From: Gaiellales bacterium
GTDB lineage: Bacteria > Actinomycetota > Thermoleophilia > Gaiellales > JAICJC01
Direction: 5' to 3'
DNA length: 64,000 nt
Assembly: GCA_036273515.1 (NCBI GenBank)
Contig: DASUHM010000050.1
Span: 47,246 to 111,245, forward strand
A program made the translations under genes and the position numbers. The notes under the pieces are model-generated. The model was given only the letters and a program-made list of their open reading frames with translations. It ran no database searches and was not told the DNA's origin. Shown here in pieces: positions 1,222 to 45,655 of this stretch. Numbering within the stretch: the first letter of the stretch is position 1; every line of letters starts with the position of its first letter.

Positions 1222-1548
1222 ATGTTCGGTACTCGCACCCGCACGATCGTGACCGTCGCGGTCGTGGTCGAGGGTGCGATCGCCGGGTGGGCACTCGGCG
1301 CGGGCTGGTTCGGGCTGCTGGCGATGGTCGCCGCGGTGACCCTCGCCGACACGGCCTGGGGGATCGCCCGGAGGGGCGCGATCGCCGACTTCGCCGGGCT
1401 CGAGGTGGCCCTCGCGCTGGCGGTCATGATCGCCGTCGGCGCCCCGGGCACGATGACCGCGCTCACGGCGGCGGCCTGCGCGGCGTGGGTCATCCGCGAC
1501 GGCCGTTCCGCGCCCGCAGCGACGGCCCGCGCACCAGAAGGGGTCTGA
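1222..1548 (+). CDS. small hydrophobic (membrane) protein, hypothetical
   Basis: 108-aa A/G/V/L-rich ORF with 2-3 TM-like segments. Its last codons (APEGV*) lie inside a repeated palindrome, so the 3' end is uncertain. Confidence 0.4.
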   Translation: MFGTRTRTIVTVAVVVEGAIAGWALGAGWFGLLAMVAAVTLADTAWGIARRGAIADFAGLEVALALAVMIAVGAPGTMTALTAAACAAWVIRDGRSAPAATARAPEGV

Positions 1549-1561
1549 CCCCGTTTGGTGC
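1531..1561. repeat. 31-nt palindromic intergenic repeat GCACCAGAAGGGGTCTGACCCCGTTTGGTGC (REP-like / bidirectional terminator hairpin)
   Basis: Near-perfect dyad centred on T1546, lying between convergent stops (TGA 1546-1548 and TGA 1563-1565 on the minus strand). It is 30/31 identical to 19347-19377. Confidence 0.85.
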
Positions 1562-1562
1562 G

Positions 1563-2351
1563 TCAGGCGCGCGCGGCGAGGGCGACCACCTCGTCGTGCA
1601 GCGGCGAGCCGCACGTCGTCAGACAGGAGCGGTTGTCGGCGATCGGCGAGCCGTCGATCTGGGTGATCGTGCCGCCGGCCTCGCGGACGATCACCTCGAC
1701 CGCGGTCGTGTCCCACGTGTGGACGATCGGGTCGACCATGATCTGGGCGGCGCCGCGGGCCACCAGCATGTGGCCCCAGAAGTCGCCCAGGCCGCGGACG
1801 CGCCAGGCCGACTCGGAGAGCGTGCGGTAGAACGGCTCGAAGCCGTTCTCCTGGGCCGATCGCAGGCCGCCCGAGACGACCATTGCATCGGCGAGCGACG
1901 TCGCGCGGACGCTGATCGGCTCGCCGTTCATGCGGGCGCCGCCGCCGGCCGTGGCCTCGTAGCTCTCCCCCAGGCCGGGCGCGTGGCAGACGCCGACAAC
2001 GACCGCCCCGTCGACCACCAGCCCGATCAGCGTCGCCCAGAGCGGGATCCCGACCATGTAACTGTGGGTGCCGTCGATCGGGTCGACCACCCAGGTCGGC
2101 GCGCCCGGCACGGGCTCACCGCCGCCCGCCGCGTGCAGGCCGTCCTCCTCGCCGAGCATGTTGTGGCCGGGGCGCGCCTCCGCCAGCCGGGCGCGGATCG
2201 CCTGCTCGGCGGCGATGTCGGCATCGGTCACCCAGCTCCCGTCGCCCTTTCGCGTCGCCGGCGGGTGGTGCATGTAGCGCTCGTGGGCGATGCCGCCGCC
2301 GAGCAGGGCGAGCTCGCGGGCCAGCTCGAGGTCGGCGGTCTGGTCGCTCAC
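1563..2351 (-). CDS. hisN: inositol-monophosphatase-family phosphatase, most like histidinol-phosphatase HisN
   Basis: Start set at GTG 2351 (VSDQTADLELA...). IMPase motifs are present: LGEED, WVVDPIDGT, WDTTAVEVIVREAGG. The C-terminal pattern resembles actinobacterial HisN. GTGA overlap with the pyrF stop. The upstream 300 aa of the track ORF is Arg-rich junk. Confidence 0.7.
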   Translation of the reverse strand: MSDQTADLELARELALLGGGIAHERYMHHPPATRKGDGSWVTDADIAAEQAIRARLAEARPGHNMLGEEDGLHAAGGGEPVPGAPTWVVDPIDGTHSYMVGIPLWATLIGLVVDGAVVVGVCHAPGLGESYEATAGGGARMNGEPISVRATSLADAMVVSGGLRSAQENGFEPFYRTLSESAWRVRGLGDFWGHMLVARGAAQIMVDPIVHTWDTTAVEVIVREAGGTITQIDGSPIADNRSCLTTCGSPLHDEVVALAARA

Positions 2352-19081: not shown

Positions 19082-19113
19082 CCCGCCAGGAGGGGCAGAC
19101 CCCTTCTGGCGGG
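19082..19113. repeat. palindromic repeat (inverted-orientation variant: CCCGCCAGGAGGGGCAGACCCCTTCTGGCGGG)
   Basis: 14-bp stem with one G:T pair and a 4-nt loop, 19 nt after the permease stop. Its minus strand shares CCAGAAGGGGTCTG with the copies at 1531 and 19347. Confidence 0.75.
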
Positions 19114-19115
19114 TC

Positions 19116-19333
19116 CGCCGCGCGCAGCGCCGCGGCGATGAAGGCGGTCTTCGCCTCGGTGTACGCGAGGCGGTCCGTGCCATGGCGGGCCGCGAGGTCG
19201 CGCTTGCATGCGGCATACGCCTCTGCCACTTCCGGGTGCTCGCGGAGGTGGTCTCGGAAGCGGACGTGCTCGGCGTGAGGTCGGTCTTCCCGGCCGCCAT
19301 CGGGCCGGTGATCAGACAGACGACGGGCTCCAC
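19116..19333 (-). pseudogene. gene remnant: a P-loop N-terminus joined out of frame to the C-terminal ~54 aa of a GrpB/UPF0157-like protein
   Basis: GTG 19333 gives VEPVVCLITGPMAAGKTDLT (Walker A). One frame over, 19277-19116 reads HAEHVRFRDHLREHPEVAEAYAACKRDLAARHGTDRLAYTEAKTAFIAAALRAA, a GrpB C-terminal pattern. No intact ORF and no native stop. Confidence 0.6.
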
Positions 19334-19346
19334 CGGCCGAGCATAC

Positions 19347-19377
19347 GCACCAGAAGGGGTCTGACCCCGTCTGGTGC
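19347..19377. repeat. 31-nt palindromic repeat GCACCAGAAGGGGTCTGACCCCGTCTGGTGC
   Basis: 30/31 identical to 1531-1561. It lies 10 nt from the stop of the HAD gene (19387). Confidence 0.85.
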
Positions 19378-19386
19378 GCCCGCGCG

Positions 19387-29185: not shown

Positions 29186-30622
29186 TCATTCGGCGGCCTG
29201 CATGCCCTCCGACGCGGTCAGGTTCGCGCCGATCCGCTGGGCGAGGCCGGGGATGGCCATGATGATGGCGAGGCCGGCCAGCAGCCAGGCCGCGACCACC
29301 CAGGGGAACCAGTTGAACGGGTACACCTGGCCGACGGCGTTGCGGTAGAAGACGTAGGCGAGCACGATGATCGCGGCGACCGGGAACACGAGCTCCCACA
29401 GCCGCTCGCGGCTGTCGCGCAGAAACATGCGGCCGGCGCCGACGTTGGTCACGGCGTAGGCCACGATCATGCTGAGCACGCCGATCGTACCGGGGTAGAA
29501 GAACGCCGAAACCGCGTCGGAGATGCCGTAGGCGCGCATCGCGATCAGGCCGGCAGCGGCGATCACGATGACCGTGGCGAGGGCGAACGCGGGCGCACCG
29601 GTGCGGTTGGACGAGGTGCCGAGGCGCGGAGTGACGAAGCCGTCGCGGCCCATGGCGAACAGGATGCGGGAGGCACCGGTGGCCGTGCCGAGCGCGCTGG
29701 CGAAGGCGCTCACAGCCGCGCCGAGGTTGATCAGATCGCCCATCCACGAGGCGATGTAGGTCTTGCCCAGGTCGCCCAGCGGCGAGCTCGATCCCGCGAA
29801 CGCGGCCACGCCGGCCTTGTCGGTGCCGAAGCCCCACGTCTGCGCCAGCATGCAGAGCACGTAGAAGACGCCGGCGCCGATCACGGCGTTTCGGATCGCG
29901 CGCGGGATCTGGCGGCGCGGCTCGTTCGTCTCCTCGCCGAGCGCCGCGGCGCCCTCGAACCCGCCCCAGGAGAGGAACGCGAACACGACGCCAAGGCCCA
30001 GGGCGGAGCTCGTCGTCCCGCTCGGGAGCTTGAACACGTCGGCGGTGAAGCCCTGGTTGCCCGGCGTGTTGCCGGTGGCGAGCTTCACGAAGATCACGAT
30101 CATGAGGACGGAGATCAGGGCCACCGAGATCGCCTCGATCGAGAGCAGCGTCCGGGTCGTGATCTTGATGTCGCTGTACGCGAAGAAGCCGACGGCGAGC
30201 GCGGCGGCGAGGGCAATCCAAAGCCATTCGCTGCCGCTCCAGATGCCGACGCCGTTCGCGAACTGGGCCAGGAAGAGACCGACCTCGGCGGTCGACGCGA
30301 CCGTGAAGCAGAGGTACGTGCCGAGCAGCGCCCAGCCGGAGAAGAACCCCGCCCGGGCGCCGAGGGTGGCACCGGTGAACGCGTAGACCGAGCCGGCGTG
30401 GCTGTAGTGGCCGGCGAGGCGCATGATGCCGAAGGCGACCAGGAAGACGAGGATCGCCGCGATCAGGAAGGCAAGCGGGACGGCCTGACCCACGTTGCCG
30501 GCAACGCCGACGCCGTTCAGGGCCATTGCGGCGGTGGGCGCCATGATCCCGATCGAGAGGGCGATCGCCTCCCAGAACCGGAGCTCGCGGCGCAGGCCGC
30601 GGTCCTTCTCAACCGTGCTCAT
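29186..30622 (-). CDS. APC-family amino acid permease
   Basis: ATG 30622 (MSTVEKDRGLRRELRFWEAIALSIGIMAPT...). 478 aa, 12 TM. ATGA overlap with the formamidase stop. Confidence 0.88.
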   Translation of the reverse strand: MSTVEKDRGLRRELRFWEAIALSIGIMAPTAAMALNGVGVAGNVGQAVPLAFLIAAILVFLVAFGIMRLAGHYSHAGSVYAFTGATLGARAGFFSGWALLGTYLCFTVASTAEVGLFLAQFANGVGIWSGSEWLWIALAAALAVGFFAYSDIKITTRTLLSIEAISVALISVLMIVIFVKLATGNTPGNQGFTADVFKLPSGTTSSALGLGVVFAFLSWGGFEGAAALGEETNEPRRQIPRAIRNAVIGAGVFYVLCMLAQTWGFGTDKAGVAAFAGSSSPLGDLGKTYIASWMGDLINLGAAVSAFASALGTATGASRILFAMGRDGFVTPRLGTSSNRTGAPAFALATVIVIAAAGLIAMRAYGISDAVSAFFYPGTIGVLSMIVAYAVTNVGAGRMFLRDSRERLWELVFPVAAIIVLAYVFYRNAVGQVYPFNWFPWVVAAWLLAGLAIIMAIPGLAQRIGANLTASEGMQAAE

Positions 30623-31572
30623 CGTCCCTCCTCGTCGAAGATCCCCAGCGGCAGGAACATGCCGACCACCCAGTTGGGCTGGTCGACAACCTCGTGGATG
30701 CGCAGGTCGCAGGCGACCGAGCAGAGCGCATACGCCTCCTGCCGGTCGAGCCCGCGGTTGTGGCCGAGGTGCTCGATCATCGCCCGCGTCGCCGCCTTCG
30801 TCGCCTCCATCAGGTCGGGTGCGACGCCGGTCGTGACGTGATAGGCGTGCGCCTCGGTGGGGGCGAGCTCTCCGGCGGCCACCGAGTACTGCGGCGCGGG
30901 CACCGAGAAGTCGCGGCGGACGCTCAGGCGCACGACGATGTCCATCGCCGCCTCGACGGCCGTGCCGCACACCTCGCCGTCGCCCATGGCCGCGTGCGTG
31001 TCGCCGACCGAGAACAGGGCGCCGTCGACGCCGACCGGCAGGAACAGGGTCGTGCCGACGCGCAGGTGCTTGATGTCGAGGTTGCCGCCGAAGTTGGACG
31101 GCGGCACGATCGAGTGCCGGCCCGGCTCCGGCATGGCGACGCCGATCGTCCCCGGGAACGGCTCGAACGGGAGCGTCACGCCCTCGGCGAAACGGACACG
31201 ACGGGCCGCGCCGTCGACGGCCGAGATGCGCAGCCACGGATCCGGGAACTCGTCGGCGAGCAGCCCGAAGCCGGGGATGATCGCCGTCCAGCCCCAGTCG
31301 CCGGGCCGCAGCTCGAGGATCTCGACCGCGAGCACGTCGCCCGGCTTCGCGTCCTTCACGAACACCGGCCCGCTGACCGGGTTCACGTGCGAGAAGTCGA
31401 GCGCGGTGACCGCCTCGGCGCCCGAATCGCGGCCGATCTGCTCGTCGCCGGCGTCGCGCACGTGCAGCTCGACATCGGCTCCGGAATCGACCTCGAGGGC
31501 GGGCGGGATGGCGTTGTCCCAGACGTAGTTGAACGCCTCTGGCCGGACCTCGTGCAGAGAATGACGGTGCAT
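30619..31572 (-). CDS. acetamidase/formamidase-family amidohydrolase
   Basis: ATG 31572 after GGGAGAGGGG. FmdA_AmdA pattern: VNPVSGPVFVKDAKPGDVL, GGNLDIKHL, GDTHAAMGDGEV. Confidence 0.85.
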   Translation of the reverse strand: MHRHSLHEVRPEAFNYVWDNAIPPALEVDSGADVELHVRDAGDEQIGRDSGAEAVTALDFSHVNPVSGPVFVKDAKPGDVLAVEILELRPGDWGWTAIIPGFGLLADEFPDPWLRISAVDGAARRVRFAEGVTLPFEPFPGTIGVAMPEPGRHSIVPPSNFGGNLDIKHLRVGTTLFLPVGVDGALFSVGDTHAAMGDGEVCGTAVEAAMDIVVRLSVRRDFSVPAPQYSVAAGELAPTEAHAYHVTTGVAPDLMEATKAATRAMIEHLGHNRGLDRQEAYALCSVACDLRIHEVVDQPNWVVGMFLPLGIFDEEGR

Positions 31573-31619
31573 CAGAAGACCCCTCTCCCAGTGACCGAGC
31601 GCGAGTCTACAGGTGCTGG

Positions 31620-32003
31620 CTACATGTGCGCCGGGAGGGGGCGCAGGTCGGGGTCGACCCACGTCGAGCGGGCGGCCGGCGTGGCCAGCAGCTCGGCGCT
31701 GAAGTGGCGCGTGAGGAGGCCGCCGTCGAGCAGCCCGGGGAAGTGCGCGAGGAACTCGTCGAAGGTCACTGCCGGGGCTTCCGCGAGGTGGTACGCGACG
31801 AACGCCGCCCACGCCTCGGTGATCGTGCGGTGGTACTTCTGCGGGGCGCCGTGGGCCTCGGCGACGTGGCGGATCGCCGTCTCGATCCGCGTCAGCGCGA
31901 CCTCGCGCTCGTGCTCGCGCAACTCGCGCCACGCCAGGCGCAGGTGCTCACGATGACCGAACTCGCCCTGCGGGCCGAGCAGATCGGAAGGGACGGCGGG
32001 CAT
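31620..32003 (-). CDS. hypothetical protein
   Basis: ATG 32003; 127 aa with ordinary composition (HREHLRLAWRELREHE...). I recognise no family. Confidence 0.5.
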   Translation of the reverse strand: MPAVPSDLLGPQGEFGHREHLRLAWRELREHEREVALTRIETAIRHVAEAHGAPQKYHRTITEAWAAFVAYHLAEAPAVTFDEFLAHFPGLLDGGLLTRHFSAELLATPAARSTWVDPDLRPLPAHM

Positions 32004-32073
32004 GCGGCGATGGTAGCCGTTGTCGAGGGGTCTCCCCGACGCGATCCCCACCCCGCGCGGACACACTCGGCAC

Positions 32074-32334
32074 ATGACCCGGAACCCAGGATCGGCGCGA
32101 CCCGGCCCGGTTTTCTGGGCGGGCATGACGCTCGTCGCGCTCTGGAACGCCGGACTGATCATGCTCGCCGTCGAGTCGGCGCAGGGATACAGGAGCTGCG
32201 TCGCCGACGACGGCATCATCTGCGTCGACTTCAGCGGCCCGATCCTCGTCGTCATGATCGCCGTCGACGAGGTCGTCGCGCTCACGTGGTGGTTCGTGCG
32301 CCGGCGTGCCGGTCGAGGCGACCCGACCGAGTGA
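32074..32334 (+). CDS. small two-TM membrane protein, hypothetical
   Basis: ATG 32074 (MTRNPGSARPGPVFWAGMTLVALWNAGLIMLAV...). Confidence 0.45.
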   Translation: MTRNPGSARPGPVFWAGMTLVALWNAGLIMLAVESAQGYRSCVADDGIICVDFSGPILVVMIAVDEVVALTWWFVRRRAGRGDPTE

Positions 32335-32349
32335 GTTCAGGGCGACCGG

Positions 32350-32374
32350 CTCCGCCATCAGCATGTGACAGTTG
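32350..32374 (+). repeat. direct-repeat core A: CTCCGCCATCAGCATGTGACAGTTG
   Basis: 23/25 identical to 34812-34836 in the same orientation. Looser shared blocks continue for about 50-60 nt and include the stop codon of the enclosed gene. Confidence 0.8.
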
Positions 32375-32408
32375 GCGCCGTCGGCATCCGCCACCGGCGG
32401 CCTGCGAA

Positions 32409-34703
32409 CTACGACGCTACGGGATACTCGGCCAGCGGCACGCCGTCGGCATCCCAGGCGTCCTCGAACGACTCGAGCGGCATGTCGGAGGACCGGATCG
32501 AGTCGACCGTTCCGGCCAGCACGGAGTTGAGCGGTGGAACCTCGAACGTCTCGTCGTCGTCGCAGATCACGCGGGCATGAAATCCTCGGGCCTTCTCCGC
32601 CGGAAGGACGCGCCACTGGACGTCGATCTGCCGCTTCTCGAGCTCCTGGACGAACCGCTCGAACGAGCGCTTCAGCTTCGAGTTGAGATTCCCCGGCCCG
32701 GACATGAGACGCACGCTCACGATCCCTTCGGCGGGCAGCTCGTCAGTCAGGATCTCGAGCGCCTTGCGATCCATGTGCTGCTCGTACCAGAGCACGTCGC
32801 CCTGCAGCTTGCGAATAAGACGGCGGATTGCAAGGTCGTTCGAGAACGGGCGGTTGGGATGGAGGTACACATCGACAGGCCCTCGCCGTTGTGCCTCTTC
32901 CTCGCGTTCGACCAGAACCTTCGTCGGCGCCCCGCCGATCGTCTCGAACCCGGCGCGGATCACCTTCGCGAGCAGCTTGCGCCGGGCTTCGAGGAAGTCC
33001 TCGTACGCCATGTCGTGCCAGTTCTCCGGCAGGGCATGGTGGAACATGTCCTCGCTCGTGAACTGATCGGCGTAGTCCGGCCAGTAGTCCTTCGGCGCGG
33101 TCGCCGACACCTCGATGTTGTCCGGCCACTCGACATAGGACAGGTTTGCGATCTGGTTCACGCGTCGTATCCCCGAGACGCCGAGGCCCTCCAGGTACTT
33201 GCGCGGAAAGAGGTGGTGGCGGTCGATCGGGGACTTTTTCGGCTGCACCACCGGATCGAACAGATCGCGCAGCGGCAGCGATGCCTTCTGCTCGCCGTCG
33301 GGGCCCTGCTTGCCGAACGGCGGCACGCGGGCATCGAGCAGACACAGGGACGCCGCATAGGCGAAGAGCTCCGGGCTGCGTGCGGCAGAGGTCGCCAGCT
33401 CGTTCGGGAGCGTGATCGTCCAGTAGTCCGGCGTCAGCGTCGTCTCGACCGCCTGACGCAGGCGGTCGAGATACTCCGCGCCCGTCTCGGCGGTCGAGAA
33501 GGTCTGGACGTCCTGGGTGATCTGGGTCTCGAACGACCCCGTGTAGCGCCCCGTCAGCGCAGACATGAAGAAATAGCGGGAGATCGGCGTCCGCAGATCG
33601 GTGTGAGACAGGCCGTAGCGACGGCCGACCAGATAAAGCGCGTAGACCAGGACGACGTTGTTGACCGACGAGATCTCGGTCGAGCGCCGGAAACCCGCGG
33701 CGATCAACGCCTTCAGGTATTCGTGCCAGCTGGTCAGGTCGAGGGTCTCGTCAATCGCTTCGGTGAGGATGTCGAGCTGGGCCTCCCGATCCGTCTGGGT
33801 CAGGGTCGTATCACCGTCGAGGTTCGCGCCGCGCAGAAGCGCCAGCACGGACTGGAGCCGCCCCCGATGGAAGCCGACCAGGACGCCGACGCGCAGAAGC
33901 TGATCGGGAGCAGGCGTGATCAGATGGTTGTACGGACTCGGCCTGCCGTCGCTCGGGACGAGTCGGGCGGCACGGGCAAACTGCTCGAGCCGCCGGCGGT
34001 CGGATTCACGGAACACCGACAGGAGGGTGAGGATGAAGTCGGCCTGGGTGAGCGGAGTGCCACCGCTGTTCACGCGAAGGAAGATCTCGGCGACGCGCTC
34101 CTCGTCGACCTCATGGCCGATCTGCACCGCGAGGAAGGGGTAGTCCTCCAGGCCGCTGAGGCGGAAGAGCGCGTTCTTGATCGCCTTTTCTCCCCCATTT
34201 TCGAGGGCCTCCGGCCGCGACTCACGCAAGCGGTCGACGAACTCGTCGATCACCTGCCAGTCCTCTCCCGTCCAGAGCCGCGTGATGTCCGCGAGGAACT
34301 CCGGGTCTTTCTCGACGGCGGCGTCCGTGACCTCGAAACGGCCATCTCGCGGGCGGAAGGACAGGTTGATCCGCCCGGTCGTGAAGTCCTTGAACGTGAC
34401 GTCGGCGCCCTTCATGACCGCGTAGAGGCTCGTCAGCCGCTGCTGCCCGTCGACGATGAACTCGGTCGGCGTGTGCTGCTTGCCGTCGACGCCGATGAAC
34501 TTGGCGTCGACCTCGGCGGCGTTCCAGAGCATTAGGTAGCCGACCGGAAAGCCCTGGTACATCGAATCGAGCAGGTCGCGCACCTCGGACTTCTGCCAGA
34601 CAAACGGCCGCTGCAGCTCGGGCAGAGCCAGCTTGCCGAGAACGATGTCGCCGAGCAGCTGGCTCAGCTCGAACGAGACGGGTTTGAAGAGTGTCCTTGC
34701 CAT
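32409..34703 (-). CDS. DUF262 (ParB/Srx-like NTPase) + DUF1524-like His-Me-finger nuclease (GmrSD/SspE-like) with an extra C-terminal PLD/Nuc-like domain
   Basis: ATG 34703 (MARTLFKPVSFELSQL...). Motifs: LPELQRPFVWQ; VDGQQRLTSLY; IDRHHLFPRKYL...NQIANLSYVEWPDN. The C-terminal ~190 aa contains VSVRLMSGP...GFHARVICDDD...PPLNS. Confidence 0.8.
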   Translation of the reverse strand: MARTLFKPVSFELSQLLGDIVLGKLALPELQRPFVWQKSEVRDLLDSMYQGFPVGYLMLWNAAEVDAKFIGVDGKQHTPTEFIVDGQQRLTSLYAVMKGADVTFKDFTTGRINLSFRPRDGRFEVTDAAVEKDPEFLADITRLWTGEDWQVIDEFVDRLRESRPEALENGGEKAIKNALFRLSGLEDYPFLAVQIGHEVDEERVAEIFLRVNSGGTPLTQADFILTLLSVFRESDRRRLEQFARAARLVPSDGRPSPYNHLITPAPDQLLRVGVLVGFHRGRLQSVLALLRGANLDGDTTLTQTDREAQLDILTEAIDETLDLTSWHEYLKALIAAGFRRSTEISSVNNVVLVYALYLVGRRYGLSHTDLRTPISRYFFMSALTGRYTGSFETQITQDVQTFSTAETGAEYLDRLRQAVETTLTPDYWTITLPNELATSAARSPELFAYAASLCLLDARVPPFGKQGPDGEQKASLPLRDLFDPVVQPKKSPIDRHHLFPRKYLEGLGVSGIRRVNQIANLSYVEWPDNIEVSATAPKDYWPDYADQFTSEDMFHHALPENWHDMAYEDFLEARRKLLAKVIRAGFETIGGAPTKVLVEREEEAQRRGPVDVYLHPNRPFSNDLAIRRLIRKLQGDVLWYEQHMDRKALEILTDELPAEGIVSVRLMSGPGNLNSKLKRSFERFVQELEKRQIDVQWRVLPAEKARGFHARVICDDDETFEVPPLNSVLAGTVDSIRSSDMPLESFEDAWDADGVPLAEYPVAS

Positions 34704-34754
34704 GAGGCGGGAGGCTAGCTCGCGCCCCCAAATCGTCGCCGCGACGTCATCAAG

Positions 34755-34776
34755 CGGACGGTCAGACCCCGTTCCG
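34755..34776. repeat. hairpin carrying the GGTCAGACCCC core (member of the palindrome family)
   Basis: CGGACGGTCAGACCCCGTTCCG, located 52 nt upstream of the islet gene start. Confidence 0.5.
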
Positions 34777-34811
34777 GCAGGCCCGCGCGCAGCTCCGCCC
34801 GCGGCGACACA

Positions 34812-34836
34812 CTCCGCTATCAGCATGTGACATTTG
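34812..34836 (+). repeat. direct-repeat core B: CTCCGCTATCAGCATGTGACATTTG
   Basis: Partner of 32350-32374. Confidence 0.8.
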
Positions 34837-34909
34837 TCGGCGAGGCCGCCCGCCGAACGGCCGCCAGCCCCCACCGGCAACCGCCTACCACCGCTATGCT
34901 CCCGCGCCG

Positions 34910-35116
34910 ATGGCTGAGCCGACTCTCCGCGATATCGACGCCCTGTGGGGGCCGGCGACGCCGCAGTTCGCCTACCAGATCGCCGTCCGCATCGAGAGCC
35001 TGATCGCCGACCTGCCGGCGGGGCATCCGGTGCGGCGCCACGGAGAGCTGCGGCTGGCGGAGCTGGACGAGCTCGGGCACGGCACGACCAAGGGCCCGGC
35101 GCCGACCGTCCACTAG
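34910..35116 (+). CDS. small hypothetical protein
   Basis: 68 aa (MAEPTLRDIDALWGPATPQFAYQIAVRIESLIADLPAGHP...) with normal composition. No family recognised. Confidence 0.45.
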   Translation: MAEPTLRDIDALWGPATPQFAYQIAVRIESLIADLPAGHPVRRHGELRLAELDELGHGTTKGPAPTVH

Positions 35117-35123
35117 GTCGCGC

Positions 35124-35154
35124 TTGACCCTGACGCGGCGTCAGGGTCTATCGT
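35124..35154 (+). promoter_or_regulatory. MerR-type promoter: TTGACC, 19-nt spacer, TATCGT, with an embedded 11-1-11 dyad
   Basis: The spacer contains GACCCTGACGC-G-GCGTCAGGGTC (35126-35148). The -10 element ends 6 nt before ATG 35161, so the mRNA is probably leaderless. Confidence 0.65.
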
Positions 35155-35160
35155 CGGGCC

Positions 35161-35904
35161 ATGGATCCAACCGGCCCGGTGGACACGTGGCGGATCGGCG
35201 AGCTCGCCGGGATGGCGCGCGTCTCGGTCCGCACCCTGCGCCACTACGAGGCGCTCGGCCTGCTCACGCCGACGGCGCGCACCGAGTCCGGCTACCGGCT
35301 CTACGGCCTCGCCCAGGTCGACCGGCTCTACCGGATCCTCGCGCTGCGCTCGCTCGACCTGTCGCTCGAGGAGATCGGGCGGCTGCTGCGCGACGATGTC
35401 GGCCTGGCCGACGTGCTCGCCCGCCAGCTGCAGGCGATCGAGCGGCGCATGGCCGCGGACGCCGAGCTGCAGGCCCGGCTCCACCGGCTGCTCGAGGCGA
35501 GCTCGAAGCTCGGCGAGCCGACCGTTACGGAGCTCACAGACACGATGGAGGCGATGGCGATGTCCGACCGCTACTACACGCAGGAACAGCAGGAGGCGCT
35601 CGCGCAGCGCCGCGACGCGCTCGGCCCGGAGGGCATGCGCGCCGCCGAGCGGGCCTGGGCCGACCTGATCGCCGAGGCCGAGGCGGAGCGAGCCGCGGGC
35701 ACCGATCCGGCCGCCCCGCGGATGCAGAAGATCGCGCGGCGCTGGCGCGCCCTCATCGAGGGGTTCACCGGCGGCGACCCCGCCGTTCGCGAGTCGCTCG
35801 GGCGCATGTACCGCGAGGAGGGCGTCGAACGGGCGTCGCGCGGCGCCGTCTCGAGTGACCTGATGGCCTACGTCGGCCGGGCGCTCAGCGCCCGCGAGGG
35901 ATGA
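35161..35904 (+). CDS. MerR-family regulator with a TipAS-like C-terminal domain
   Basis: HTH IGELAGMARVSVRTLRHYEALGLL, a coiled-coil linker, and a C-terminal YYTQEQQEAL...WADLIAEAEAE pattern as in TipAL/Mta. Confidence 0.85.
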   Translation: MDPTGPVDTWRIGELAGMARVSVRTLRHYEALGLLTPTARTESGYRLYGLAQVDRLYRILALRSLDLSLEEIGRLLRDDVGLADVLARQLQAIERRMAADAELQARLHRLLEASSKLGEPTVTELTDTMEAMAMSDRYYTQEQQEALAQRRDALGPEGMRAAERAWADLIAEAEAERAAGTDPAAPRMQKIARRWRALIEGFTGGDPAVRESLGRMYREEGVERASRGAVSSDLMAYVGRALSAREG

Positions 35905-43345: not shown

Positions 43346-44275
43346 TCAGTGACATACGCGGGCCGATGACCTGCCGCCGGTATCGGCCCGCGCTTCCCCC
43401 ACCTCTCGCTCGTACTGCACGGCTGCCCAGGCGACTCGCATCCCGGCGCGCTCGTACAGCCTGATCGCCGCCGCGTTGTCGCCGTCCACGCCGAGGCCGA
43501 CGCGGCGCTCGCCGGCGGCCCAGAGCCGCCGCAGCGCCTCGTGCAGCAGCACCGCGCCGATCCCCCGGCCCCGCCATTTGGCGCGCACGGCGAGTGCTTC
43601 GACGTAGCCCATCCCGAACGTCCGCGCCGTGCACAGGACGACCCCGCAGACGTCCGCGCCCTCCCGGGCGACGATCCACACGTCCGCGTCGAACCGCCCC
43701 TCCGCCGCCTTCCCCTCGCGCCATTCGGCCTGGTTCGTCCAGCGGTGCTCGAACGCCTCTTCGACACACGCGTCCACTCCGGCGTCGTCGACGCCGGGCC
43801 GGAAGGTCGCGAGCGCGATGCCGGGCGGCGGCGCGAGCGGCGGGGGCGCGGCGTCGAGATCGATGCGCATGCGCAGGTGCTGCGACTCCGCGACGTAGCC
43901 CCGGCGCTCGAGGAGCCGGCAGGCGGCCCGGTCGGCGGCGAGCACCGAGTTGCGCACGACCACGCTCCCGCCGGTCTCGGCCGCCCGCTGCTCCGTGAGG
44001 TCGACGAGCAGGCCGCCCACGCCATGCCCGGCATCGGCAGGGTGCGTCCAGCCGAGCGCGTACAGACGGCCGCCGTCCCTTGGGCGGAGCGTCGCGTGCC
44101 CGGCGAGCTCCCCGGCCCGCTCCGCCAGCCAGACGTCCGACGCCGTTCTCCACTCGTCCTCGACGTCCGTGACCGTCCAGGCGCCGTCGCCGCCGTACGC
44201 GGCGTCGTACGCGTTCACGAGCGCGGCCACCGCGGCGGCATCTTCCGGCCGCGGCGGTCGCGCCGCGAGCGTCAT
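43346..44275 (-). CDS. tandem-GNAT acetyltransferase (MshD-like architecture)
   Basis: ATG 44275 (ATGA overlap with the thrC-family stop). Two GNAT cores are present, the second with AVRAKWRGRGIGAVLLHEAL...AAAIRLYERAGM. Confidence 0.75.
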   Translation of the reverse strand: MTLAARPPRPEDAAAVAALVNAYDAAYGGDGAWTVTDVEDEWRTASDVWLAERAGELAGHATLRPRDGGRLYALGWTHPADAGHGVGGLLVDLTEQRAAETGGSVVVRNSVLAADRAACRLLERRGYVAESQHLRMRIDLDAAPPPLAPPPGIALATFRPGVDDAGVDACVEEAFEHRWTNQAEWREGKAAEGRFDADVWIVAREGADVCGVVLCTARTFGMGYVEALAVRAKWRGRGIGAVLLHEALRRLWAAGERRVGLGVDGDNAAAIRLYERAGMRVAWAAVQYEREVGEARADTGGRSSARVCH

Positions 44276-45495
44276 GCCTGAAGCGGCTGGGCCAGCGCCT
44301 CGTCGACGGCGTCCGCGTCGGCCGGGATCGCGATCGTCTCGACCGCGGGCTCCACCGCGTCGACGGTCTTCAGGCCGTCGCCGGTGATGTACACGACGAC
44401 GGTCTCGCCGGCGCCGATCTCGCCGCGCTCGGCCAGCTTGCGCAGGACCGCGGTCGTGACGCCGCCCGCCGTCTCGGTGAAGATGCCGGTGGTGCGGGCG
44501 AGCAGCTGGATGCCCTCGACGATCTCCGCGTCGGAGGCCGCCTCGATGCTGCCGCCGGTGCGGCGGGCGACCCCGAGCGCGTAGACGCCGTCGGCAGGGT
44601 TGCCGATCGCGAGCGACTTGGCGATGCCGGTCGGGCGGACGGGGACGACCTGATCGCCGCCCGCCGCAAACGCCGTGGCGACCGGGGAGCAGCCCTCGCC
44701 CTGCGAGCCGTGCATGACGGGCGCCGGCCCGGGCTCGATCAGCCCGGCGGCGCGGCCCTGCTCGAACCCCTGCAGGATCTTCGTGTAGAGCGAGCCGGAG
44801 GCGATCGGCGCGACCACGCGGTCGGGCGCCCGCCAGCCGAGCTGCTCGGCCGTCTCGAGCGCGATGGTCTTCGAGCCCTCCGAGTAGTAGGCGCGCATGT
44901 TCACGTTCACGAACGCCCACGGCCGGTCGTACGCGAGCTCCGAGCAGAGCCGGTTGACGTCATCGTACGAGCCGTCCACGGCGAACACGGTCGCGCCGTA
45001 GGCGGCCGCGGCGATGATCTTCTCCCGCTCGAGGTTCGCCGGCACGAAGATGTACGTCGGCAGGCCCAGCGCCGCCCCGGCGGCAGCCGTCGCGCCGGCC
45101 AGGTTGCCGGTCGAGGCGCACGCGAGCGCGCCGAAGCCGAGCTCGGCCGCCTTGGCGGCGGCCACCGCGACCACCCGGTCCTTGAACGAGTGGGTGGGGT
45201 TCGAGGTCTCGGTCTTCACGTAGAGCTCGCAGTCGAGGCCGAGCTCGGCCGCGAGCCGGTCGGCCCGTATCAGCGGCGAGCAGCCCACCGGCAGGCCCTT
45301 CTCGGGCGGCTCGACGGGCAGGAAGTCGGCGAAGCGCCAGAGCGTCTGCGGCCCGGCGGCGATGCGGTCGCGGGCGACCGGCTCGGACTCGTCCCAGCCC
45401 ACCTCGAGGGGGCCGAAACAGCGGTCACAGGCGAACAGGGCCTCCAGCGGATAGGTGGCGCCGCAGCCCTTGCAGGCGAGGTGGGTGGCCTTCAT
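44272..45495 (-). CDS. thrC: threonine-synthase-family PLP enzyme with an N-terminal Cys4 zinc ribbon
   Basis: 407 aa. Motifs: CKGCG...CDRC, the PLP-Lys motif NPTHSFKDR, and ASTGNLAG. It is preceded by a SAM-I riboswitch, so its physiological role may be in methionine rather than threonine synthesis. Confidence 0.8.
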   Translation of the reverse strand: MKATHLACKGCGATYPLEALFACDRCFGPLEVGWDESEPVARDRIAAGPQTLWRFADFLPVEPPEKGLPVGCSPLIRADRLAAELGLDCELYVKTETSNPTHSFKDRVVAVAAAKAAELGFGALACASTGNLAGATAAAGAALGLPTYIFVPANLEREKIIAAAAYGATVFAVDGSYDDVNRLCSELAYDRPWAFVNVNMRAYYSEGSKTIALETAEQLGWRAPDRVVAPIASGSLYTKILQGFEQGRAAGLIEPGPAPVMHGSQGEGCSPVATAFAAGGDQVVPVRPTGIAKSLAIGNPADGVYALGVARRTGGSIEAASDAEIVEGIQLLARTTGIFTETAGGVTTAVLRKLAERGEIGAGETVVVYITGDGLKTVDAVEPAVETIAIPADADAVDEALAQPLQA

Positions 45496-45543
45496 GGTCG
45501 ATCCCCTACGTTCGGGCCGGCGCCCTTCGGCGCGGCCGGTTCA

Positions 45544-45655
45544 CATCGTCCGGGATCCGCGGATCCCGCCGGATTTGGCACCTTTCCCCGCCGTGGCCGG
45601 GATGGTTGCCGAGGCTTCACAGGGCCGGTCCCTCCGCCTCTCTGGATGCGACGCC
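45544..45655 (-). promoter_or_regulatory. SAM-I (S-box) riboswitch
   Basis: The minus strand reads AUCCAGAGAGGCGGAGGGACCGGCCCUGUGAAGCCUCGGCAACC...AAAGGUGCCAAAUCCGGCGG...GGACGAUG. This matches the conserved SAM-I core almost position for position. A GC hairpin and GGGGA RBS lie between it and ATG 45495. Confidence 0.9.

What the first reader, a model, noticed from the sequence alone, without database searches (positions are those of the whole stretch)
32350..34836. Single-gene islet bracketed by an imperfect direct repeat, with the look of a site-specific insertion but no recombinase
The 25-nt string CTCCGC(C/T)ATCAGCATGTGACA(G/T)TTG occurs at 32350-32374 and 34812-34836. The two copies are in the same orientation and match at 23/25 positions. 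Looser shared blocks (GTCGGC, CCACCGGC, AC(C/G)GCTA) continue for the next 50-60 nt of each copy. The 2462 bp between the cores contains exactly one gene, the DUF262/His-Me-finger protein. Its last codons and stop fall inside the extension of the left repeat. By eye the gene has noticeably more A/T-ending codons and lower GC than the flanking genes. Outside the repeats lie two small ordinary ORFs, so the segment reads like an attL/attR-type duplication around a cargo gene inserted into an intergenic spacer. No integrase, transposase or terminal inverted repeat is present. Mobilisation would therefore have to be in trans, or the recombinase has been lost.
Basis: seen in the sequence. Interest (0 to 1): 0.8.

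Follow-up and report, generated by a model that had tools for sequence, protein, structure and literature searches.

The report
Restriction gene in a repeat-bounded slot
A single horizontally acquired anti-phage restriction gene sits between two diverged copies of a short, strongly conserved DNA element that sister species carry only once, but the same element is also duplicated around other contents in relatives, so it marks a recombination-prone landing spot and not the ends of a self-mobile element.

Summary
The repeat is real. The 25-nt core (32350-32374 and 34812-34836) matches at 23/25, with none expected by chance. With its flanks it forms a ~65-nt direct repeat at about 77% identity. 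It brackets one gene, a 764-aa GmrSD/BrxU-like DUF262 protein with its own leaderless-type promoter. That gene has the lowest GC3 (0.87) of any gene of at least 100 aa in the window. No recombinase lies between 13 and 55 kb. The repeat is nonetheless not a footprint of this gene. Close DUF262 homologues in integrase and conjugative contexts lack it. Relative L123 has two copies about 150 nt apart around a gene-less 133-nt hairpin segment. Relative L008 has its own version of the repeat around a different foreign gene. More distant relatives carry 2-7 tandem motif copies. The 21-nt heart is invariant across species and also occurs at a second locus. My best reading (about 0.5) is a native palindromic protein-binding element whose local duplication delimits a variable slot now holding a foreign restriction gene. 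The main rival (about 0.25) is an att-like site served by a recombinase acting in trans. Interest is moderate.

The parts
31620..32003 (-). p127, a conserved hypothetical gene and the first gene of the p127-formamidase-permease operon. It is the left conserved anchor of the variable region.
   Evidence: tblastn finds orthologues at 63-91% in 13 syntenic loci. The longer upstream extension of this ORF is not conserved.
32074..32334 (+). p104 (called as 86 aa), a small two-helix membrane protein restricted to this clade. Its stop lies 6 nt before the left repeat.
   Evidence: 75-92% aa orthologues in L087, L088, L092, L120, L123, L124 and L127. Only 15 clusters exist in the protein database. GC3 is 0.885.
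32341..32405 (+). Left copy of the ~65-nt direct repeat. Its left flank and core are orthologous to the single copy in empty sites.
32350..32374 (+). 25-nt core, left copy: CTCCGCCATCAGCATGTGACAGTTG. Its first 21 nt are the near-invariant heart of the element.
32409..34703 (-). The cargo gene, 764 aa. It has an N-terminal GmrSD_N/DUF262 domain resembling BrxU, an HNH-like DRHH...N...N stretch, and an extra C-terminal domain of about 175 aa.
   Evidence: Pfam 3.7e-31. PDB 7p9k 4e-9. PADLOC HEC-05 2.8e-30. GC3 0.871. DNA homology to L002-L005 spans exactly 32409-34721.
34712..34717 (-). The gene's own -10 element, TAGCCT, 8 nt before the ATG (leaderless type). The conserved gene module ends at 34721.
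   Evidence: The element is conserved upstream of the homologues in L002, L003 and L005, which are otherwise unrelated contexts.
34722..34802 (.). Spacer between the gene module and the right repeat. It contains a degenerate copy (34755-34776) of a dispersed REP/terminator-like palindrome and is probably native DNA.
   Evidence: It aligns with L123 segment X, p about 0.012, and with L127 at 76% over 70 nt, E 4e-7. The palindrome family is described.
34803..34868 (+). Right copy of the ~65-nt direct repeat. Its right flank runs on into the native p68 promoter.
34812..34836 (+). 25-nt core, right copy: CTCCGCTATCAGCATGTGACATTTG.
34895..35116 (+). p68 with its conserved -10 (TATGCT, 34895-34900) and ATG at 34910. 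It is the right conserved anchor of the variable region.
   Evidence: -10 and ATG are conserved in 22 loci. The family has 182 clusters, from Gaiellales-like organisms.

Best explanation
The two repeats are diverged copies of a native, functionally constrained element of the p104-p68 spacer. The element is a 21-nt invariant heart inside a roughly 37-nt imperfect palindrome, most likely a protein-binding site. Its local duplication delimits a variable slot.

In this species the slot holds one foreign, self-promoted GmrSD/BrxU-like DUF262 gene, a candidate type IV (modification-dependent) restriction enzyme. The gene came from the lower-GC mobile gene pool of Thermoleophilia and is now fixed in the species.

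Shown:
- The repeat is real.
- Empty sites with one copy exist.
- The gene is foreign in composition.
- No recombinase is nearby.
- The same duplication occurs around other contents in relatives.
- The element is conserved.

Inferred:
- The duplication arose locally and probably before the gene arrived.
- The gene entered the already duplicated spacer by illegitimate or short-homology recombination, replacing part of the earlier filling.
- Homologous recombination between the two copies can delete the filling and restore a one-copy site.

On this reading the repeats are a property of the locus, not the ends of a DUF262 mobile element.
For: - Empty sites with one copy: L087, L092, L088, L124-126.
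- The left copy with its left flank, and the right copy with its right flank, are each collinear with the single native copy.
- L123 has two direct copies about 150 nt apart around a 133-nt non-coding segment. L120 has that segment with one copy only.
- Window 34760-34829, just left of the right copy, is homologous to the hairpin-to-core stretch of L127 and to the end of L123 segment X.
- L008 has a 30-nt (27/30) repeat of its own version of the element around a different low-GC3 gene.
- L012, L016 and L009 carry 2, 4 and 7 tandem motif copies respectively.
- The 21-mer is identical in five lineages that differ by 5-12% in coding DNA.
- DUF262 homologues at 82-90% aa lie in an integrase island or next to TraG/TrwC/DDE genes. 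They have no core and no flanking repeats, and DNA homology stops at 32409 and 34721.
- The content between p127 and p68 differs in almost every relative, with gaps from about 14 nt to 4.7 kb.
- The insertion is fixed in at least 10 samples of the species.
Against: - In all three genomes with two copies, the copies share lineage-specific bases: CATG against CAGG, and ATCGCCG in L123. That fits independent duplication at each insertion, which is att-like, as well as it fits gene conversion.
- A 33-nt identical copy at an unrelated locus (L089) is unusual for an ordinary operator.
- Several rearrangement breakpoints fall at or next to the core in L120 and L127.
- L127 is a 596-nt contig at about 2x coverage and may be chimeric.
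- The homology of the 34722-34802 spacer rests partly on a dispersed palindrome, so it may not be orthology.
- No binding protein is identified.
- How the gene physically entered is not shown.
Confidence: 0.5

Rival explanations
1. The core is an att-like site. It would be the crossover site of a chromosomally encoded site-specific recombinase acting in trans. Circular DNA carrying a copy of the site integrates there Campbell-fashion and leaves attL/attR-like copies. DUF262, the L008 gene and L123 segment X would be three captured cassettes.
For: - One copy in empty sites and two around inserts in three genomes, with similar repeat boundaries.
- Copies within a genome share lineage-specific bases.
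- Both gene cargos lie on the same strand relative to the core.
- The element is an imperfect palindrome of recombination-site size, with 21 nt invariant.
- An identical 33-mer lies at a second locus (L089).
- Breakpoints fall at the core in L120 and L127.
- No recombinase is inside the islet, as with integron cassettes or Xer-exploiting elements.
Against: - No recombinase was found from 13 to 55 kb here or in L123's 11.5 kb.
- No free attP-like copy accompanies DUF262 homologues elsewhere, and none is in viral contigs.
- There are only two gene-bearing examples and no arrays.
- Strong conservation of the site in empty genomes is easier to explain by a housekeeping or regulatory role.
- The left flank of the right copy looks native rather than element-derived.
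- The arms match only 8-10 of 16 and show no covariation.
Confidence: 0.25
2. The arrival of the DUF262 gene itself created the repeat. This would be a long target duplication from staggered breaks or replicative repair at a fragile palindrome. The duplications in L123 and L008 would be independent events of the same kind.
For: The duplicated segment is native sequence, present once in empty sites. The element is palindromic and the locus is visibly unstable.
Against: - 65 nt is far beyond known target-site duplications.
- The copies are only about 77% identical although the insertion is confined to one species.
- L123 has the duplication without any gene.
- The spacer left of the right copy is shared with relatives that lack the gene.
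Confidence: 0.1
3. The two copies are simply two operator sites kept by selection, one for p68 and one for the p127 operon or the new gene. Their position around the gene would be coincidental and unrelated to how the gene arrived.
For: Motif arrays with a 23-nt period upstream of p68 in relatives look like cooperative binding sites. The element is strongly conserved. The right copy lies 109 nt upstream of the DUF262 start and about 60 nt upstream of the p68 -10.
Against: - The left copy lies between the 3' ends of two convergent genes, which is a poor place for an operator.
- p68 keeps its promoter but has no core at all in L007-, L121- and L110-type genomes.
- Coincidence would have to recur in L008 and L123.
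Confidence: 0.1
4. The repeat is a chance match in GC-rich DNA.
For: None beyond the high GC content of the region.
Against: Zero matches in 100 shuffles. The same 21-mer is conserved at the orthologous site in six or more lineages.
Confidence: 0.01

Closest known systems
Core defence hotspots free of mobile-element genes, lying between conserved genes (e.g. Pseudomonas aeruginosa cDHS, PMC10250203; E. coli defence-island hotspots, PMC10121019)
   Same: A defence gene sits between conserved anchor genes (p127/p104 and p68). The content at the same spot differs between relatives. No mobility genes are present.
   Different: - The slot is a spacer of about 115 nt holding a single gene.
- It is bounded by duplicated copies of a specific conserved 21-37-nt element.
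- Most alternative contents are not defence genes: a methyltransferase, an ECF sigma factor, transporters, a secreted protein.
Integron gene cassettes and CALINs (attC clusters without an integrase)
   Same: Single genes without a recombinase are bracketed by related imperfect-palindromic repeats in direct orientation. Both gene cargos share one orientation.
   Different: - There is no attC architecture. The GTTRRRY core site is not matched.
- There is no IntI and no array of cassettes.
- The cargo carries its own promoter.
- The repeat is native to the spacer and conserved in empty genomes.
Xer-exploiting elements (IMEX) and pdif modules. This comparison is from my own knowledge, not tested against a reference set.
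   Same: Insertions without a recombinase are flanked by a host site plus a diverged copy, and mobilised by a host enzyme acting in trans.
   Different: - The core shows no resemblance to the dif consensus as I recall it.
- It occurs at a second locus.
- It is absent from this locus in several relatives.
- A position at the replication terminus was not shown.
GmrSD / BrxU type IV restriction enzymes (PMC4619093, PMC8565348; PDB 7p9k)
   Same: The N-terminal DUF262 domain aligns to BrxU and carries the DGQQR motif. An HNH-like stretch follows. Distant homologues are plasmid-borne, one of them next to type I restriction-modification genes.
   Different: - Only the N-terminal domain reaches significance.
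- No DUF1524 match was found.
- There is an extra C-terminal domain of about 175 aa.
- Activity is untested.

Membership tests
GmrSD/BrxU type IV restriction enzyme (the cargo) | N-terminal DUF262 (GmrS, ParB-like NTPase) domain | tested here: met
   Pfam GmrSD_N 3.7e-31, residues 14-227. BrxU structure 7p9k at 4e-9, with DGQQR aligned. PADLOC HEC-05 at 2.8e-30.
GmrSD/BrxU type IV restriction enzyme (the cargo) | C-terminal DUF1524 (GmrD) His-Me finger nuclease domain | tested here: inconclusive
   No Pfam or NCBIfam hit for the C-terminal half. Only a DRHHLFP...NQIANL...WPDN stretch is visible by eye.
GmrSD/BrxU type IV restriction enzyme (the cargo) | Cleavage of modified DNA only, and protection against phage | not testable with these tools
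   Needs experiment.
Integrase-mediated integrative element (attL/attR) | Direct repeats flank the insert and the empty site has one copy | tested here: met
Integrase-mediated integrative element (attL/attR) | A recombinase is encoded by the element or adjacent to it | tested here: not met
   The islet holds one gene. No recombinase domain was found in 30 genes from 13 to 55 kb.
Integrase-mediated integrative element (attL/attR) | The repeat travels with the cargo, so an attP copy accompanies the gene elsewhere | tested here: not met
   L002-L006 have no core and no flanking repeats. The repeat also brackets other contents.
Integrase-mediated integrative element (attL/attR) | Excision to a circular form | not testable with these tools
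   Needs read-level data. All 16 contigs of the same species carry the insert.
Integron cassette / CALIN | attC site with R''-L''/L'-R' structure and a GTTRRRY core site | tested here: not met
   GTTGGCG and TTTGTCG do not fit GTTRRRY. No conserved hairpin was found across copies.
Integron cassette / CALIN | An array of two or more cassettes, or a nearby IntI | tested here: not met
   Two copies only in 64 kb. No integrase found.
Xer-exploiting element (IMEX) at dif | The site is the unique chromosomal dif: 28 bp with XerC and XerD arms, at the replication terminus | tested here: inconclusive
   The arms match 8-10 of 16. The same 33-mer occurs at another locus in L089. The core is absent from this locus in the L007 and L110 types. 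Terminus position was not tested, and the dif consensus comes from memory only.
Transposon or IS insertion | A transposase, terminal inverted repeats and a short target-site duplication | tested here: not met
   No transposase and no inverted repeats at the ends. The repeat is about 65 nt and imperfect.
Mobile-element-free variable hotspot between core genes | Conserved flanking genes with different content in relatives | tested here: met
   The p127-p68 gap ranges from about 14 nt to 4.7 kb and holds at least 7 different contents.
Mobile-element-free variable hotspot between core genes | Contents enriched for defence systems | tested here: not met
   Only the window's gene is defence-like. 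The others are a methyltransferase, an ECF sigma factor, transporters, a Cys-rich protein and a secreted protein.

The most novel reading that the evidence does not exclude
The 21-37-nt imperfect palindrome is the recombination site of a host-encoded recombinase acting in trans. That recombinase would capture promoter-bearing single genes, and gene-less segments, at defined intergenic sites in uncultured Thermoleophilia. This would be a gene-capture system analogous to integrons or Xer-exploiting elements, but with an unrelated site and no linked integrase.
Probability: 0.2. Interest if true: 0.8.

Novelty: new variant of a known kind. Interest (0 to 1): 0.45.

Why it matters
Single defence genes that appear in chromosomes with no mobility gene nearby are common and poorly explained. 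This locus offers a clean natural series of states: empty, duplicated but gene-less, and filled with two different foreign genes, all at one conserved 21-nt element in a barely studied soil lineage. If the element is a recombination site, it would reveal a new way for Actinomycetota to capture genes. If it is an operator whose duplications merely create a tolerant landing pad, it shows how regulatory repeats seed insertion hotspots. Both outcomes can be tested with read-level metagenomics and a simple two-site recombination assay.

Tried and rejected
- **RNA element:** no Rfam hit in window 31.9-35.2 kb or in L123, no tRNA, and no hairpin conserved across copies.
- **Promoter or terminator role of the core:** the consensus scans found nothing. 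By eye the core has no TANNNT at the right distance. p68, DUF262 and MerR each have their own -10 close to the start codon.
- **The repeat as part of the DUF262 module:** rejected. Homologues lack it.
- **Phage or plasmid attP:** two scans of viral contigs gave only one chance hit, in 53%-GC DNA.
- **Extension of the repeat to the gene's stop codon and beyond:** not significant.
- **Left/right discordance of the flanking genes** as a sign that the right side was imported: none seen. All relatives are 88-96% identical on both sides.
- **Deciding orthology against paralogy of the copies from their sequences:** uninformative, because the 21-mer is invariant.
- **Polymorphism within the species (an empty allele):** none in 16 contigs.
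- **A long N-terminal extension of the formamidase and p127 ORFs:** rejected as wrong-frame artefacts.
Full report
**1. The observation**

The 25-mer CTCCGC(C/T)ATCAGCATGTGACA(G/T)TTG is present at 32350-32374 and 34812-34836 on the + strand, 23/25 identical. A search allowing 3 mismatches finds only these two copies in 64 kb and none in 100 dinucleotide-preserving shuffles.

In register, the similarity runs from 32341 to 32392 against 34803 to 34854, with 40/52 identical. The 27 positions outside the core match at 17/27, empirical P about 0.001. With one 1-nt indel it continues to about 32405 / 34868.

A gapped local alignment of the flanks against shuffles gives p about 0.2.

**2. The gene between the copies**

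One gene lies between the copies, on the minus strand, with ATG at 34703 and TAG at 32411-32409. It encodes 764 aa.

- It has a Pfam GmrSD_N/DUF262 domain at 3.7e-31.
- It aligns to the BrxU structure 7p9k at 4e-9.
- It matches PADLOC HEC-05 at 2.8e-30.
- An HNH-like DRHH...N...N stretch is visible, but no DUF1524 model matches.
- Residues 590-764 are an extra domain that 600-aa relatives and plasmid homologues lack.

Its composition stands out. GC is 0.651 and GC3 is 0.871, against GC3 0.93-0.97 in the neighbours. It is the lowest of all genes of at least 100 aa in the window.

**3. The gene is foreign and travels as a bare gene module**

The organism is an uncultured Thermoleophilia, Gaiellales-like. 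Homologues at 82-90% aa identity sit in quite different contexts. One lies in an island with a methyltransferase, a ResIII helicase and a phage-type integrase (L003). Others lie next to TraG/TrwB, TrwC and a DDE transposase (L004, L005).

DNA homology to the window starts 18 nt upstream of the ATG, at 34721, and ends at the stop codon, at 32409. Those 18 nt hold a conserved TAGCCT -10 element 8 nt before the start codon.

None of these loci has the core or any flanking direct repeat. Their GC3 is 0.77-0.89, typical of a lower-GC mobile pool.

**4. No recombinase nearby**

Thirty genes between 13 and 55 kb are ordinary metabolic, transport and regulatory genes. No terminal inverted repeats are present.

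**5. The neighbourhood and the empty site**

The real neighbours are as follows.

| Side | Gene | Coordinates | Strand |
|---|---|---|---|
| Left | p127, ahead of formamidase and a permease | 31620-32003 | - |
| Left | p104 | 32074-32334 | + |
| Right | p68 | 34910-35116 | + |
| Right | MerR/TipAS regulator | 35161-35904 | + |

A metagenome scan with a degenerate core pattern found contigs of sister species (L087, L092, L088). In them, the p104 stop is followed by one copy of the element and then, 58 nt on, by the p68 promoter. The spacer is about 115 nt.

Further look-ups through p104 homologues added more empties, L124-126.

In the five-way alignment, the left copy is collinear with the native site from the p104 end through the core and about 35 nt beyond. 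The right copy is collinear from GGCGAC through the core to p68.

Within the window's own species, 16 contigs from at least 10 samples at 97-100% identity all carry the gene and both copies unchanged. The insertion is therefore fixed and is not an assembly artefact.

**6. The repeat belongs to the locus, not to this gene**

Anchoring on the formamidase gave 80 loci. In those that keep the synteny, the gap between p127 and p68 ranges from about 14 nt to 4.7 kb and its contents vary:

- nothing (L017, L013, L016);
- a methyltransferase (L010, L110-119);
- an ECF sigma factor with a partner (L018);
- a Cys-rich protein (L011, L014, L015, L061);
- a permease, a Usp protein and Kup (L007, L009, L012, L121).

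Three further states bear directly on the finding.

- **L008.** This MAG lacks p104. It has a different single gene at the same spot, on the same strand as DUF262: a 627-aa secreted protein with GC3 0.85. The gene is bracketed by a 30-nt direct repeat (27/30) of that genome's own version of the core, GTCCGCCAAnnGCAGGTGACAyTTGTCGCC.
- **L123.** This NCBI MAG (GCA_036265265.1) is among the closest relatives. It has two direct copies about 150 nt apart around a 133-nt non-coding segment, X, and no gene. L120 has X with only the first copy.
- **L127.** This contig is 95% identical to the window across p104. After the p104 stop it has a REP-like hairpin, then GGGCGAC plus the first 18 nt of the core, and then a 76%-identical partial second copy of the p104 3' half. 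It is 596 nt long at about 2x coverage, so it should be treated with caution.

More distant relatives carry a related motif, CAYGYGCCACTTGGCG, upstream of p68 in tandem. L012 has 2 copies, L016 has 4, and L009 has 7 at a 23-nt period.

**7. The duplication probably predates the gene**

The 81 nt between the gene module and the right copy (34722-34802) contain a degenerate member (34755-34776) of a dispersed palindrome family. This stretch aligns with the hairpin-to-core stretch of L127 at 76% over 70 nt, E 4e-7. It also aligns with the 3' end of X in L123, p about 0.012, ending at the same GGCGAC.

Hairpin, about 22 nt of spacer, GGCGAC and core therefore form a unit shared by relatives that lack the gene. 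On this reading the ancestor looked like L123: p104, copy 1, filling, hairpin, copy 2, p68. The DUF262 module, with about 38 nt of unknown origin on its right side and only about 3 nt on its left, then replaced the left part of the filling.

The caveat is that part of this similarity could come from independent insertion of the dispersed palindrome.

**8. What the element is**

The 21-mer CTCCGCTATCAGCATGTGACA is identical in winR, L087/L092, L088/L124-126, L120 and L089. It differs by one base in winL. These lineages differ by 5-12% in coding DNA and much more in the adjacent spacer. In 1.64 Mb of fetched DNA the 21-mer occurs only at this spacer and once elsewhere.

The other occurrence is in L089. 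There a 33-nt identical copy lies between a 69-aa ORF and a GNAT-ankyrin gene, next to a cyclophilin gene.

The element is an imperfect palindrome, with 16-nt arms matching 8-10 of 16 around GCATG. It also contains the inner dyad GACA-NN-TGTC or GCCA-NN-TGGC. It matches no Rfam family, tRNA, promoter consensus or terminator consensus.

p68 keeps its promoter without any core in several lineages. The core is therefore not needed for p68 expression.

A constrained double-stranded protein-binding site is the most economical reading. The data cannot tell whether the protein is a regulator or a recombinase.

**9. Weighing the explanations**

For a locus-level duplicated element with turnover of the filling (best reading, about 0.5):
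- the gene-less duplication in L123;
- the native look of the right copy's left flank;
- the tandem arrays in relatives;
- the strong conservation in empty genomes;
- the absence of the repeat from DUF262 genes elsewhere.

For an att-like site served in trans (about 0.25):
- three genomes with two copies that share lineage-specific bases;
- similar repeat boundaries;
- the same orientation for both gene cargos;
- the second locus with an identical 33-mer;
- breakpoints at the core.

The remaining readings are weaker. A duplication created by this gene's own insertion (about 0.1) fits poorly with L123 and with 77% identity. A purely regulatory coincidence (about 0.1) fits poorly with the left copy lying between two convergent 3' ends. 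Chance is excluded.

**10. Comparison with known systems**

The situation most resembles the mobile-element-free hotspots between core genes described for defence systems (PMC10250203, PMC10121019). It differs in three ways: the slot is a single-gene slot, it is bounded by a specific duplicated element, and most alternative contents are not defence genes.

It resembles integron cassettes and Xer-exploiting elements in lacking a recombinase of its own. However, it fails the attC test and the integrase test, and shows no dif-like features.

The cargo is a new member of the GmrSD/BrxU family on the strength of its N-terminal domain only (PMC4619093, PMC8565348).

**11. Verdict**

The attL/attR reading is only partly supported. 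The feature is a moderately interesting variant of a known kind. A read-level search for excision junctions, together with a genome-wide census of the 21-mer, would settle the mechanism.

Noticed in passing
window 35124-35163: A textbook MerR-type promoter stands in front of the MerR/TipAS gene. It reads TTGACC, a 19-nt spacer holding the inverted repeat CCCTGACGC/GCGTCAGGG, then TATCGT, with the ATG 6 nt later. The MerR gene itself is absent in L087, L092 and L110, where p68 abuts p143.
   Followed up: partly
window 1533-1563, 19083-19116, 19346-19379, 34755-34776; L123 3590-3640; L127 378-416; L017 9334-9362; L018 5903-5931; L012 20654-20718: A dispersed REP- or terminator-like palindrome family, GCRCCAGRAGGGGTCTGACCCCKTYTGGYGC, sits downstream of genes. 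The arms show compensatory changes (A-T to G-C) between copies. The copy at 34755-34776 is degenerate.
   Followed up: partly
window 34895-34912, 34703-34717 (-), 35149-35163: p68, the DUF262 gene and MerR all have a TANNNT -10 element 6-9 nt before the start codon and no Shine-Dalgarno sequence. This suggests leaderless transcripts are common in this organism.
   Followed up: partly
window 45540-45652 (-): A SAM riboswitch (RF00162, 84.6 bits) lies directly upstream of a PLP-dependent enzyme gene (44272-45495, -).
   Followed up: no
L009 4873-5060; L012 5325-5370; L016 6000-6160: Tandem arrays of 7, 2 and 4 units of about 23 nt (CACCACGCGCCACTTGGCGGCG) lie upstream of p68 in more distant relatives. 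They resemble iterons or cooperative binding sites.
   Followed up: partly
L089 1734-1766: A 33-nt copy of the core, identical to that in L087, lies at an unrelated locus. It overlaps the stop codon of a 69-aa ORF and sits about 58 nt upstream of a GNAT-ankyrin gene, next to a cyclophilin gene.
   Followed up: partly
L127 446-596: In the closest relative, the core is truncated after CATGTG and followed by a 76%-identical partial second copy of the p104 3' half. The contig has low coverage and may be chimeric.
   Followed up: partly
window 32074-32334: p104 has GC3 0.885 and only 15 homologue clusters in 5.8 billion proteins. It looks like a young gene restricted to this clade, and it sits in the same hotspot.
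   Followed up: partly
window 32412-32940 (protein residues 590-764): The DUF262 protein has an extra C-terminal domain of about 175 aa with no Pfam match. Many 600-aa relatives and the plasmid homologues lack it.
   Followed up: no
window 30619-32285 (-): The mechanical ORFs over-extend the formamidase (true start near 31572) and p127 (true start 32003) into Arg-rich wrong-frame sequence. Public gene callers disagree here, and they also disagree on the DUF262 start (821 aa against 764 aa).
   Followed up: yes
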